NCBI GenBank assembly: GCA_040143965.1
Contig: JASJQH010000037.1
Span: forward strand, 1 to 40,575
Source: Basidiobolus ranarum
Lineage: Eukaryota
Direction: 5' to 3'
Length of the DNA stretch: 40,575 bases
In this document: one piece after another, positions 9,750-28,054 of the stretch
How positions within the stretch are numbered: position 1 is the stretch's first letter
How the letters are laid out: every line of letters starts with the position of its first letter
Program-made: the position numbers and the translations under genes
Notes under the pieces: generated by a model
Told to the model about the DNA's origin: nothing
Seen by the model: only the letters and a program-made list of their open reading frames with translations
The model's database searches: none

Positions 9750-11798
9750 ATGCTTGACCGTCTTACTGATCTGGATGACCATGAGTTGGATGAGCAAGCA
9801 GCCATTTTCTTGCATGCCAAGAAAAACAAAAAGTCTGATTTTCTTTAATAGTCCACCATTCTCCTTCCATTTTATATTAAACTGAACCAATTCTTTCTAC
9901 AAAGCAGAGATCCACAATCACGTCTTGTAGCAAAAACTCATCGAAAAAACAATTGCAGTGATGCAGAAAGTCTTGTTACTTCTTATGAGGACAGGTCAGC
10001 TTTTAAATTTCGCCCTTTGGTTGAACCTTTTATACAAACTGGAGACAAGCGAAAGACTCTCAAGGGAAAAGCGTCTTTAAATACTTTCCAACCCCGTGAA
10101 TTAAGTGTTGAAACTTCTGATGGTGCTTTGAATTCTCTTAGAACTCGAAGGAGCAATGAGGTATTATATGTCCCAAATGCGGATTCTATCCTTGTTAACA
10201 AGACTAATTGTGATTCTCATATTTGATTTTAGTCTGATGCACCTACCTCTAATACTGCTCGTATCTCTAAAAAGCCTTCGAAATCATCTACTAATTTTAG
10301 TGAAACTAAGAAAGGGAATAGACTGTTTTCGTATACTAGCGATGGTGGCGGTAAGATCGATACTTTGGTCGCAAGAACAAAGCCCGAGTGCTAATTCTTT
10401 TGTATGATTATTTCAGATTCTGAGGAAGAAGAATATTTTGTTTATCCCAAACACCGTACTTGTGGACGTAATTCACCAAAACGCAACAGTAGCAGCATCT
10501 CATTGAATGAAGCTGTGGATAAGCACCCCAGATCACATTCTGGTACCAGTGGAGTTTCCAAGTACCCCGATTCACGTAAAAATGATCTTAGCAGGATGTC
10601 ATCCCCTAGAATATCGCGAACAGAGCATTACCAACCGGTAGGTAGTACTGACCAGGAGCGTCGGCCCGATCGACATTATCAGCATCATCCCAGTTATCTT
10701 TCGGATTCTGAGGACGATGGTGAATATATTACGCAGTGGAGGCATGACAAACGAATGGGAAGATCTTTAGCTGTACCTAAGAAAGGGGCCAAACAGCGTG
10801 AAGAGTCACTTGGGCCAAGATCCTTTAGGCGTTCAAGACAGCAGGAGTCTACATGCCACGGGGATTCTGAAGAGGAAGAAGAAACTCTACCGTTATTCTG
10901 GAAAATGAATCCTGAAGCGAAAAGACGCAAAAGGTAAACAATACATCGATTCCACCCTTAGTCCCTTGGCTCCCACTTATATCTTTGATTTCAGAAAACC
11001 CAAAAAAGTTAATCCCCTATTCGGGACACTCTCAGTGTTTATTATCATATTTGCACTATGTACGATGTATTCGTATACAACAATTCCTTTGGATGATGTA
11101 AGTCCAATCAGCTTTACCAACATATTGGCAGCTGAAAAGGAACTGGTATTTGACTTGCATTTGCGCGGACACAACTGGAACATATGGCCAGTGGAGGTAA
11201 CAACCATCGACATAGGAGTGTTCGCCACCGCAAAGAAAAAAAATGAAACGTCGACTCCCTTAAACTTCGACCGTTTAGCAACTACAGGTAAATTCTCTTG
11301 AAATGGTTTGGTGGTTATTCGGTACACTTACATTAGTCTCAACTTGGTAGGAACCACCCCAGCTGAGTTTTTAGGAAATGTGGACCATTTAGACGAGCCC
11401 ATTGTGTTTGCTTCTGGATGGGGTGTTCGTGAAGTAGTATCTACTGTAATTGCTCAATTCCGTCTCAGAAACCCGGGTAGCCCTAACGAAGACGGTGAAA
11501 ACAAATGGTAAATTCAATGTTAGGTTCCGTATAGTCGCTCTATAGTTAACATCTATATTCCAGGTATTCCATCCTTCGTAATCCTTACGATCTGACTGTG
11601 CGAGGAGTTCTTAAATACAAACTCTTATTCCGTACTCATGCAGTTCGAATTTGTGCAATCCAAGGTTTGGATCCAACTGGCGATGAGTTGAGATACGACT
11701 CTCTGGTGTTGTGCGATCGAGAGAATTGGGACCCACAGCAAGATGGCTATGTTAGACGAACCATCTCCCCCAACGAAACGTATATTACCAGCTCGTAA
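9750..11798 (+). CDS. VAC7: Vacuolar segregation protein Vac7-like (Fab1/PI(3,5)P2 regulator), multi-exon, single TM with luminal C-terminal domain
   Basis: Long S/R-rich disordered N-terminus, then a TM (LSVFIIIFALCTMYSY), then PLDDV...NILAAEKELVFDLHLRGHNWN...IDIGVFA...FLGNVDHLDEPIVF...FRLRNPG...KW...NPYDLTVRGVLKYKL, which matches the Vac7 luminal domain pattern. The start at ATG 9750 is inferred. Confidence 0.75.
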
Positions 11799-25745: not shown

Positions 25746-26083
25746 GGTATTGTGTCTGTTAACCTCACGAGAGAACGTGTATGTCAAGGATTCCCAAGTT
25801 CACTGACACATACAATAAGCATTTTACATTTCTAACACATTCGAACATCTAAATTCAACGTTATGTATCTACCATTTTACTTCTTGACCTTCTGTTTAGA
25901 AATTCTGGTACGATTAAGTAATAAATTACAAGAGAATAATTATAGTGTACCTCCAGCTCAAACGCTCGTTCAATAAGAGAAAATTCCATTCTTGAATCAA
26001 ATTGATAAACCATGTACAAACAAACGAATGGTGGGTAAATATAGATAGCTATGACTATAAAATAGAATAGATGAAGCGACGAA

Positions 26084-27796
26084 TCAACTCCTAATGCTTT
26101 TTTTGGAGTTTGCTGATCCGTTCATGTCATGAAGTAGGCCTTCAATCCCACTGTCTAACGGGCCTCGCATGGCATCAAGAAGAACGTCATGAACTCTCAA
26201 GCAATGATGACGTCTTCGCACAAACATAACTGGTCGAGTGGCAAGAGGTTGTGGATGGCTATGGGTTAGGGCTTCCAAGACTATATTGACTTCTTCATCT
26301 GAATCGAGCACCCTATCTTCAGCAATCGTTCCTAAGCCATCACCAGTACCAGAGCCATCTACTCCATTTTGAACTTCTACATTAGCACTGGGGTTGTCTA
26401 ATCAAATGGACTTAGTATGTGTCGGGAGTGATTATAGAGATTGATGAATATACTTTTCATAGGCTTGTTGAGAAGGTTCTTAGCCTGGTATGCTTGTAGT
26501 AGAATGTCATAGGGTTGCGTACGACCCACAACTGCTCTCTTCGAGGCCATGGAATGATTCTTGCAAGTGAGGGATCTGGTACATGGTGTATTATTAGGTC
26601 CAGCGATTACGCCACATTGTCGATCCAGATCCAAGGGTCCTAGAAAAGCACAAGTTTTTAATAATTAATATCATAATGCGTTCAAGATAAACACACATAT
26701 ACCTTTGACTCTTTTAATGGTGGCTTTCTTGCCTTTGCCTTTGACTTTCTTGGAAGCTGGTTTATCTTTTGTCAAGTCAGTAGGGAGTCGTTTACCGGAC
26801 ATCATGGTTTCAGTATCATCTTTGACCAAGTATAAAAAGGTAAGTTTGTATTATCATTTGATAGCTAAATTCACCAAATATCTCTCACCATCCCCAATGG
26901 ATTTCTTCTTCTTCTCGGTGGATTTCTTAGTCTTCTTTGTGAGTTTAGCTAAGGCGGCTTTCCCCCCTAATGGTTTGGTGCACTTCTCTACAATATCAGA
27001 AGTGATTAATATACTTTAGCATTTAGCTTTTCCAGAGAGGATGTATTACCACTATGCTGTAAGAAATTACACGGTAATATAGGCTTTGCACAGTTATTGC
27101 ATGTGACTATAGTCAGATCATTAGGCAATCCAATTCCACCAACACTAGACATATGTACACTGAAGTTAAGGAAGCATACATTATGTTGGAAACAGAGAAA
27201 GTTATTTCATTATTCTGAAGGATATATTCATATTGGATTTTCGTGGTGACTGGCATATCAGAAGCATCAAAAGGTTCAGAAATGGCCTTTTCCTCAAGAT
27301 CCACTAGAAAGTAAGGAAAATATAAGCAACAATGCAACGTGACAATAAAGATCCTGCGAAGAGCACATACTTTCAAACCCATTTAAAGTGTCACTGAAGG
27401 CCTCCCAGGTACCTTCTGGCAGAGGAACATGATCAACAGAATGAGTTGATGGTAGTCGATTCCAATCATTCTCTTTCTTGAATACCGCTAGAGTAGCTGG
27501 GCTGACAAAAGAGAGCCACGAATTGAAAGCTATTTTTGACTTGAGAAAGTCATTTGAGACCTTTTCAATGTCTATACAATTTTTAGTCAGTTGTAAACGA
27601 GTTTAGGTACTAGAAAAGCCGAACAGACCTTTTTCTAGATCCCTGACTTGATTTAACTTTTTTATAAGTGTTTCTTTTTGCTCATCTGAAAGTATATCCC
27701 AACCAGCTGTTAACAGAAGTAAAAGTAAATAAATAAGAGTGTTGTTCACAACGGCTACAGTATAAAAAATACAGTACGGGGCTTGTTTGAAGACAT
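26084..27796 (-). CDS. SGF73: SAGA deubiquitination-module subunit Sgf73/ataxin-7 (N-terminal C2HC zinc finger plus SCA7 domain); contains one U12 AT-AC intron
   Basis: The 19-nt first exon (27778-27796) splices to give [17 protein letters not shown]. The zinc finger reads [23 protein letters not shown]. The SCA7 domain reads [47 protein letters not shown]. The C-terminus has DSDEEV...SHPQPLA. Confidence 0.9.
27155..27225 (-). other. U12-type (minor spliceosome) AT-AC intron, 71 nt, in SGF73
   Basis: On the minus strand the 5' splice site is ATATCCTTC (starts 27225), the branch point is TTCCTTAAC (27173-27165) and the 3' end is GTAC (ends 27155). Removal joins GAA-T to AT-ATG-TCT in frame, giving KIQYEYMSSVGG...IVTCNNC. 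Confidence 0.92.
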
Positions 27797-28054
27797 TATA
27801 TGAATTCCAATTGAGTTTCCCCTAAAGAGGTTTGTGTCAAAATAGACATCACACTTGGCGTATAAACCGCTCCCCAATAATTTAGCTTAAATTTAGTATA
27901 CTTACGAATAGTAGATTTAGCTAAGCTTGTTCGGATTTTCCTAATGGACCTAAAACTGTTGATAGAGATTGAAAATTTACCTAGTAGACTTAAACAAAAC
28001 AATAATCGCTCATATTAATGCATCCTTCTCAGCTTATAACTCAACTTGACGAAA

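What the first reader, a model, noticed from the sequence alone, without database searches (positions are those of the whole stretch)
27155..27225. Canonical U12-type AT-AC intron gating the Sgf73 zinc finger, implying a working minor spliceosome in this fungus
Seen: no GT-AG intron that I could find bridges the upstream SGF73 exon (…TTKIQYE) to the zinc-finger exon. A 71-nt segment instead starts ATATCCTT, carries TTCCTTAAC about 10 nt from its end, and ends in AC. Removing it restores the frame exactly (E-Y-M-S-S-V-G-G…[10 protein letters not shown]). If it is retained, the frame shifts and stops at 27113. Established: ATATCCTT / TCCTTAAC / AC is the U11/U12 consensus, and Dikarya have lost the minor spliceosome while some early-diverging fungi keep it. 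Inference: the organism has U11/U12/U4atac/U6atac machinery, and minor-intron splicing could limit SAGA DUB-module assembly. Automated GT-AG gene models will probably mis-annotate this gene. All other introns I traced in the window look like major GT-AG introns.
Basis: partly seen in the sequence, partly recalled or inferred. Interest (0 to 1): 0.8.

Follow-up and report, generated by a model that had tools for sequence, protein, structure and literature searches.

The report
Minor AT-AC intron in Basidiobolus SGF73
A rare minor-spliceosome (AT-AC) intron splits the chromatin-regulator gene SGF73 in the fungus Basidiobolus and sits at the same spot in root-symbiotic fungi; it explains wrong public gene models, but such introns are already known to be common in this genus.

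Summary
Confirmed. Window 27225-27155 (minus strand) is a 71-nt U12-type AT-AC intron in phase 1 of SGF73 of Basidiobolus ranarum. Removing it gives Q-Y-E-Y-M-S-S, the junction of the B. meristosporus protein model. The deposited B. ranarum model reads through it and uses a 20-nt GT-AG gap. The genome has U11 and U6atac above Rfam cut-offs, U12 and U4atac just below, four minor-spliceosome protein families, and 62 strict U12 intron patterns against 3 control hits. A Rhizophagus-like metagenome contig has an AT-AC intron at the same codon position, and seven Glomeromycotina models show read-through scars there, so the intron is old. The headline inference, a minor spliceosome in this fungus, is already published for the genus (about 240-250 minor introns). 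This scan noted two other AT-AC introns in the same genome. Gating of SAGA is untested, and no RNA run was listed. Side finding: the single U6atac has GUCGA in place of AAGGA, so only 2 of 5 canonical donor pairs form. It resembles the unexplained 'CC variant' of 2008, which that paper did not report in fungi.

The parts
27155..27225 (-). U12-type AT-AC intron (intron 4 of SGF73), 71 nt, phase 1, splitting the Tyr codon before Met
27217..27225 (-). U12 5' splice site ATATCCTTC (+9 is C; T in 25 of 30 strict AT-AC loci of this genome)
   Evidence: +4..+8 pair with the genome's U11 5' end (4 WC + 1 GU), +9 does not
27165..27173 (-). U12 branch site TTCCTTAAC; branch A predicted at 27167 or 27166; 10 nt to the 3' end, no polypyrimidine tract
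   Evidence: 9-bp duplex with one bulged A against the genome's U12
27155..27156 (-). 3' splice site AC
27145..27179 (-). Cryptic major-type donor GTATGC at 27179 inside the minor intron, with in-frame AGs at 27160 (20 nt, used by deposited model P0002) and 27145 (35 nt)
27113..27115 (-). Premature TGA reached if the intron is retained (162-aa product lacking both zinc fingers)
27778..27796 (-). SGF73 exon 1 (ATG at 27796)
   Evidence: matches P0002
27629..27706 (-). SGF73 exon 2
27371..27571 (-). SGF73 exon 3 (donor 27370 as in P0002; an alternative in-phase donor lies at 27412)
27226..27303 (-). SGF73 exon 4, ends ...TTKIQYE plus 1 nt
27050..27154 (-). SGF73 exon 5 (105 nt), three of the four ligands of the N-terminal zinc finger (CNNC...H); the last Cys is in exon 6
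26889..26987 (-). SGF73 exon 6
26703..26819 (-). SGF73 exon 7
26454..26639 (-). SGF73 exon 8, SCA7 zinc-binding domain (PF08313)
26084..26397 (-). SGF73 exon 9 to the stop codon

Best explanation
The 71-nt segment is an ordinary, ancient U12-type AT-AC intron in the only SGF73 (ataxin-7 ortholog) gene found in Basidiobolus ranarum. The genome's own U11 pairs with the donor and U12 with the branch site, bulging an A 11-12 nt before the AC end. U4atac/U6atac.U5 joins and the intron is removed, making the Tyr-Met junction just before the N-terminal zinc finger. Unspliced RNA hits a stop 40 nt into exon 5 and is probably degraded. Shown: the signals, the frame, the machinery genes, predicted U11/U12 pairing, the ortholog junction and conservation in Glomeromycotina. 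Inferred: actual splicing in this species, dependence on the minor spliceosome, and decay of the retained form. The intron most likely persists by inheritance, with no special regulatory role shown.
For: Signals and frame; 3 of 2000 shuffles. The B. meristosporus model P0001 has exactly QYEYMSSVGG, while P0002 carries a 17-residue insertion found in none of the other 14 aligned proteins. snRNAs: U11 84.6 bits (cut-off 39), U6atac 66.3 (33), U12 49.4 (53; E 2e-7), U4atac 46.6 (53; E 2e-5). All four share TCCCA[CT]A at -62 to -67 (background 0.002 per 15-nt window), and U4atac/U6atac pair at -29.9 kcal/mol. Genes beside U6atac, U12 and U11 are B. ranarum proteins (3 of 3 tested). PDCD7, CCDC84/CENATAC, zf-U11-48K and Ubiquitin_4 families match at or over cut-off. 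Genome-wide strict patterns: 32 AT-AC vs 3 control, 30 GT-AG vs 0 control. L037 has a 71-nt ATATCCTTT...TTCCTTAAC...AC intron at the same codon position; its 82%-identical relative L043 has the precise join.
Against: No junction reads from this species. Frame-keeping GT-AG alternatives exist, one with a good donor (GTATGC). U12 and U4atac fall under Rfam's gathering scores. The only U6atac found has GUCGA for AAGGA and makes 2 WC + 1 GU pairs with the donor instead of 5 WC. Whether P0001 rests on transcripts is not known from the calls. The PDCD7 match is borderline (27.0 vs 27), and the zf-U11-48K exon matches GTSF1 better than 48K in the PDB. RNPC3 and ZCRB1 were not searched.
Confidence: 0.95

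Rival explanations
1. The segment is mostly exon, and the real junction is a short major GT-AG intron from 27179 (20 nt as in the deposited model, or 35 nt).
For: GTATGC is a good major donor, both AGs keep the frame, and P0002 uses the 20-nt form.
Against: The gene's seven GT-AG introns are 56-71 nt. Both forms insert 14-17 residues that no other aligned homolog has. P0001 has the AT-AC junction, and the U12 signals are conserved in L037.
Confidence: 0.03
2. The intron is a regulated gate: slow or condition-dependent minor splicing limits full-length Sgf73, and hence DUB-module assembly on SAGA. It would add to the best explanation, not replace it.
For: Retention removes both zinc fingers. 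The donor has C at +9 and loses one U11 pair. L037 lacks introns that L043 or Rhizophagus models imply, yet keeps this one, as a partly spliced RNA would (inference from one contig). Yeast SUS1, another DUB subunit, is controlled by inefficient splicing (PMC3201862, abstract).
Against: No expression data here. In Rhizophagus, minor-intron retention was modestly higher, not lower, in proliferating cells, and functional enrichment largely vanished after controlling for gene age (PMC10639083 section 35). L043 shows the reverse pattern (minor site joined, a major intron kept). The gene is one of at least 60 with such introns here.
Confidence: 0.12
3. An AT-AC intron spliced by the major spliceosome or by a hybrid machinery.
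For: The U6atac box pairs poorly with the donor, and U4atac is divergent (also noted for B. meristosporus in PMC11347168).
Against: Donor and branch are full U12 consensus and pair with the genome's U11 and U12. A U4atac with Sm site, shared promoter element and strong U6atac pairing is present.
Confidence: 0.015
4. An assembly error or pseudogene frameshift with chance motifs.
For: Fragmented assembly (13,754 contigs); each motif alone is at chance level.
Against: Only one SGF73 copy found, all nine exons intact, joint motif in 3 of 2000 shuffles, and the same intron in L037.
Confidence: 0.005

Closest known systems
Minor (U12-type) introns of Basidiobolus meristosporus (249, 0.554%, PMC10639083; 237, PMC11347168) and Rhizophagus irregularis (205)
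   Same: Same genus, same consensus signals, phase 1 (the commonest minor-intron phase), all four minor snRNAs.
   Different: B. ranarum, and this SGF73 intron by name, were not found in the passages or supplements I searched. The intron may still be in those authors' online databases, which I could not see.
CC-variant U6atac ([GU]CCGA; Davila Lopez et al. 2008, PMC2396436)
   Same: The donor-pairing box is not AAGGA, and donor pairing is poor. The downstream CUCGAUAAGGAC is shared with the Trichoplax and Reniera rows of their alignment.
   Different: Here the box is GUCGA, with no match for UCGAGAGA in their alignment file. The fungi they name (Rhizopus, Phycomyces; Mucor in the alignment) have AAGGA.
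Yeast Sgf73 / human ATXN7 (SAGA DUB-module anchor)
   Same: N-terminal zinc finger plus SCA7 domain. The profile matches yeast Sgf73 (E 1.7e-46) and ATXN7 (E 1.1e-26); ATXN7 D132-M133 aligns to the Tyr-Met junction.
   Different: ATXN7/ATXN7L are not in the human minor-intron list searched. Dikarya lack minor introns (PMC10639083).
Yeast SUS1 introns (PMC3201862)
   Same: An intron in a DUB-module subunit gene whose retention would limit the protein.
   Different: SUS1 regulation was shown experimentally, in a yeast without a minor spliceosome; here regulation is untested.

Membership tests
U12-type intron, AT-AC subtype | 5' splice site RTATCCT(T) with AT-AC ends | tested here: met
   ATATCCTTC...AC; +9 is C, as in 3 of 30 strict AT-AC loci
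U12-type intron, AT-AC subtype | Branch site TCCTTAAC close to the 3' end, no polypyrimidine tract | tested here: met
   27173-27165, 10 nt from the end; 10 nt is the mode, 15 of 30 loci
U12-type intron, AT-AC subtype | Removal restores the conserved protein | tested here: met
   398-aa frame; junction identical to P0001
U12-type intron, AT-AC subtype | Minor snRNA genes in the same genome, U11 and U12 complementary to the intron | tested here: met
   U12 and U4atac under gathering score but E 2e-7 and 2e-5
U12-type intron, AT-AC subtype | Minor-specific proteins encoded | tested here: met
   PF14968 43.4 bits, PF18036 41.3, PF05253 33 (48K vs GTSF1 not resolved), PF16021 27.0; RNPC3 and ZCRB1 not searched
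U12-type intron, AT-AC subtype | Conserved as a minor intron at the orthologous position | tested here: met
   L037 258-328; read-through scars in 7 of 32 Glomeromycotina-type models
U12-type intron, AT-AC subtype | Junction seen in RNA of this species | not testable with these tools
   no RNA holder listed
U12-type intron, AT-AC subtype | Splicing depends on minor-spliceosome components | not testable with these tools
   needs depletion experiments
Canonical (AAGGA-type) U6atac | AAGGA box pairing with donor +4..+8 | tested here: not met
   GUCGA: 2 WC, 1 GU, 2 mismatches; one copy found
CC-variant U6atac | [GU]CCGA box | tested here: inconclusive
   GUCGA differs at one position; the downstream segment matches CC-type rows
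Sgf73/ATXN7 | SCA7 domain plus N-terminal zinc finger | tested here: met
   PF08313 96.9 bits (cut-off 23); zinc finger aligned to yeast Sgf73 and ATXN7

The most novel reading that the evidence does not exclude
This intron has been kept as AT-AC in front of the Sgf73 zinc finger since the split of Zoopagomycota and Mucoromycota because its incomplete splicing tunes SAGA deubiquitinase assembly. In Basidiobolus it is spliced by a minor spliceosome whose U6atac (GUCGA box) cannot make the textbook donor pairing, so another contact must hold the donor in the active site. The U6atac sequence itself is probably real (about 0.85); the regulatory part is the weak link.
Probability: 0.1. Interest if true: 0.65.

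Novelty: new member of a known kind. Interest (0 to 1): 0.3.

Why it matters
It is a clean case of a minor intron breaking gene models. The deposited B. ranarum protein is wrong at this site, and only 10 of 32 Glomeromycotina-type Sgf73 models have the clean junction, against 28 of 32 models from other early-diverging fungi (some of those assemblies are fragmentary). It adds a minor intron shared by two fungal phyla in a SAGA subunit, usable for dating intron loss or conversion. The GUCGA-box U6atac offers a culturable, minor-intron-rich fungus for the question left open in 2008: how non-AAGGA U6atac RNAs recognise the donor. It does not change the known distribution of the minor spliceosome.

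Tried and rejected
No RNA holder was listed for window 26000-28000, so no reads were laid; this is no evidence either way. Single-motif counts were uninformative. The intron has no unusual fold (z -0.16). No SGF73 paralog was found for comparison. Searches had off-by-one exon ends and are superseded; the U6atac register was off by one and is superseded. Of 80 metagenome loci, only L037 had both U12 signals before the zinc finger. Six had no zinc-finger motif, a few motif hits were spurious, and ranking by best unbroken match favours intron-less genes, so this is no measure of frequency. Human ATXN7 as a minor-intron gene: 0 hits in the PMC10810330 list, where ATXN10 was found as a control. The zero hits in PMC6717393, PMC7507305, PMC6865273 and PMC11347168 supplements are weak, because these lack a control hit or are partial lists. 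A search for the human exon boundary gave one unrelated paper. No paper held Sgf73 + intron + minor spliceosome; U6atac + CC variant returned only the 2008 paper; U6atac + Basidiobolus returned 5 listings. The second U12 hit (L003, E 0.6) was taken as chance. Contamination as the source of the snRNAs was rejected (the U4atac neighbour was not looked up).

Full report
Observation. On the minus strand, 27225-27155 is 71 nt: ATATCCTTC at the start, TTCCTTAAC at 27173-27165, then 10 nt ending in AC. With nine exons, removing it gives a stop-free 398-aa protein reading Q-Y-E-Y-M-S-S-V-G-G into the CNNC zinc finger. Keeping it stops translation at TGA 27115-27113 after 162 aa. Each motif alone is at chance level in the window. 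The strict spaced pattern appears in 3 of 2000 dinucleotide shuffles and a loose one in 87 of 1000. The other seven introns are GT-AG, 56-71 nt, and all eight are phase 1. Among 304 donor/acceptor pairs there are GT-AG gaps of 20, 35 and 44 nt and GC-AG gaps of 20, 95 and 110 nt, and a skip from the intron-3 donor to 27107 also keeps the frame. A loose scan found no other U12-like intron in the window.

Organism and gene. The SCA7 exon matches a Basidiobolus ranarum Sgf73 record (P0002) at 100% on a 40,575-base contig, and B. meristosporus (P0001) at 98%. One copy was found in the genome. Pfam gives SCA7 at 96.9 bits. A profile of 15 homologs matches yeast Sgf73 and human ATXN7 and aligns ATXN7 D132-M133 with the Tyr-Met junction. 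P0001 reads QYEYMSSVGG, the AT-AC-spliced junction. P0002 reads into the intron and uses the 20-nt GT-AG gap, giving a 17-residue insertion absent from the other 14 aligned proteins. The predicted mis-annotation has therefore happened.

Machinery. Rfam models find U11 (84.6 bits, cut-off 39), U6atac (66.3, cut-off 33), U12 (49.4, cut-off 53, E 2e-7) and U4atac (46.6, cut-off 53, E 2e-5); none of 14 control genomes passed any cut-off. All four share TCCCA[CT]A at -62 to -67. Genes beside three of them are B. ranarum proteins (3 of 3 tested). U11 pairs with donor +4..+8 but not +9, U12 makes 9 pairs with the branch site around one bulged A, and U4atac pairs with U6atac at -29.9 kcal/mol. CCDC84, Ubiquitin_4 (recalled as the 25K family), zf-U11-48K and PDCD7 match at or above cut-off; PDCD7 is borderline, and the 48K-type exon scores better against GTSF1 than 48K. 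Strict genome-wide patterns give 32 AT-AC hits (this one included) against 3 reversed-pattern controls, and 30 GT-AG hits (two share a donor) against 0. In 28 of the 30 AT-AC loci fetched, splicing opens a frame over 60 nt each side, against 4 of 30 when retained; no random-join control was run.

Conservation. Of 80 metagenome loci, L037 has a 71-nt ATATCCTTT...TTCCTTAAC...AC intron (258-328) at the same phase-1 position before the same Met. L043, 82% identical, has the precise join. Both are closest to P0019, which is 88% identical to Rhizophagus irregularis Sgf73. L037 lacks a GT-AG intron that L043 has at the position of Basidiobolus intron 7. I infer that both are partly spliced transcripts; precise intron loss is the alternative. 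An unrecognised AT-AC intron leaves D-I-L after the donor and H-M before the acceptor. Of 32 Glomeromycotina-type models, 7 show such scars (Rhizophagus twice, Glomus, Funneliformis twice, Acaulospora, Gigaspora), 7 delete the junction, 3 start at the Met after it, 5 lack the region and 10 are clean. Of 32 models from other early-diverging fungi, 28 are clean (sorted by eye; many Glomeromycotina models are marked partial). The intron thus most likely predates the split of Zoopagomycota and Mucoromycota. Protein data cannot tell whether Mortierella and Mucorales lost or converted it.

Mechanism. Most likely standard minor-spliceosome excision (0.95). The signals, frame, machinery genes and conservation are shown. 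Splicing in this species and decay of the retained RNA are inferred. The retained form would lack the N-terminal zinc finger; the yeast N-terminal 104 residues belong to the minimal DUB module (PMC8080568, passages). Gating is therefore plausible in principle, and yeast SUS1 is a precedent (PMC3201862, abstract). But nothing here shows regulation, and in Rhizophagus minor-intron retention was modestly higher in proliferating cells (PMC10639083, section 35). I give regulation 0.12.

What is known. Larue and Roy report 249 minor introns in B. meristosporus, 205 in R. irregularis with all four snRNAs, and none in Dikarya (PMC10639083: abstract, passages, sections 34-35, supplement searched). PMC11347168 gives 237 and a divergent U4atac for B. 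meristosporus (passages and supplement search). Two earlier notes of this scan describe AT-AC introns in other genes of this genome. No paper held Sgf73, intron and minor spliceosome together. ATXN7/ATXN7L are absent from the human list in PMC10810330 (supplement search only, ATXN10 found as control). PMC6717393, PMC7507305 and PMC6865273 were seen as listings plus supplement searches with no ATXN7 hit. My recollection that human ATXN7 has a phase-1 intron in codon D132 comes from no call and was not verified.

Side finding. The only U6atac found has GUCGA where the Rfam consensus has AAGGA. It makes 2 Watson-Crick pairs, 1 GU pair and 2 mismatches with donor +4..+8. Davila Lopez et al. describe an unexplained [GU]CCGA variant in basal animals, amoebozoa, a moss and oomycetes, with AAGGA in the zygomycetes they had (PMC2396436: passages, section 16, five of six supplement files searched, file 1 cut). 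The Basidiobolus RNA also shares CUCGAUAAGGAC with their Trichoplax and Reniera rows. A missed second copy in this fragmented assembly, or a consensus error, is not excluded.

Verdict. A real and well-supported intron, a new member of a known class in a genus known for it. Interest 0.3, owed mainly to the cross-phylum conservation, the annotation errors and the U6atac variant.

Noticed in passing
L001:1501-1634 (G000 C89): U6atac has GUCGA instead of AAGGA in the donor-pairing box and resembles the CC-variant RNAs of Trichoplax and Reniera more than the Mucorales rows; one copy found.
   Followed up: partly
L001, L002, L004, L005, 62-67 nt upstream of each snRNA: A shared TCCCA[CT]A element precedes all four minor snRNA genes, with a TATA-like word at -26 to -37 in three; it recalls the plant snRNA upstream element (from memory).
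   Followed up: partly
P0108-P0113 (Rhizophagus Sgf73 models); L037:370-435: Six Rhizophagus models drop the core of the N-terminal zinc finger (joining KDES to downstream residues), as an alternative donor inside that exon would; real isoforms or annotation errors is unknown.
   Followed up: no
window 27179-27145 (-): A major-type donor GTATGC lies inside the minor intron, just before its branch site, with in-frame AGs 20 and 35 nt away; a possible in-frame rescue route if minor splicing fails.
   Followed up: partly
window 27796-26084 (-): All eight SGF73 introns are phase 1.
   Followed up: no
L037:1-1231 and L043:1-1141: Mirror-image intron content: L037 keeps the AT-AC intron and lacks a GT-AG intron; L043 the reverse.
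   Followed up: partly
L012 and L013 (G000 C80:9093-9164 and 10111-10183): Two strict AT-AC introns about 1 kb apart on the same strand, perhaps in one gene.
   Followed up: no
P0136 (Jimgerdemannia Sgf73 model): Unrelated sequence up to a Q-M just at the junction, suggesting an unrecognised intron, perhaps AG-ended, near this site.
   Followed up: no
window 27412 and 27370 (-): Two in-phase donors for intron 3 differ by 14 codons; homologs favour the longer exon 3.
   Followed up: partly
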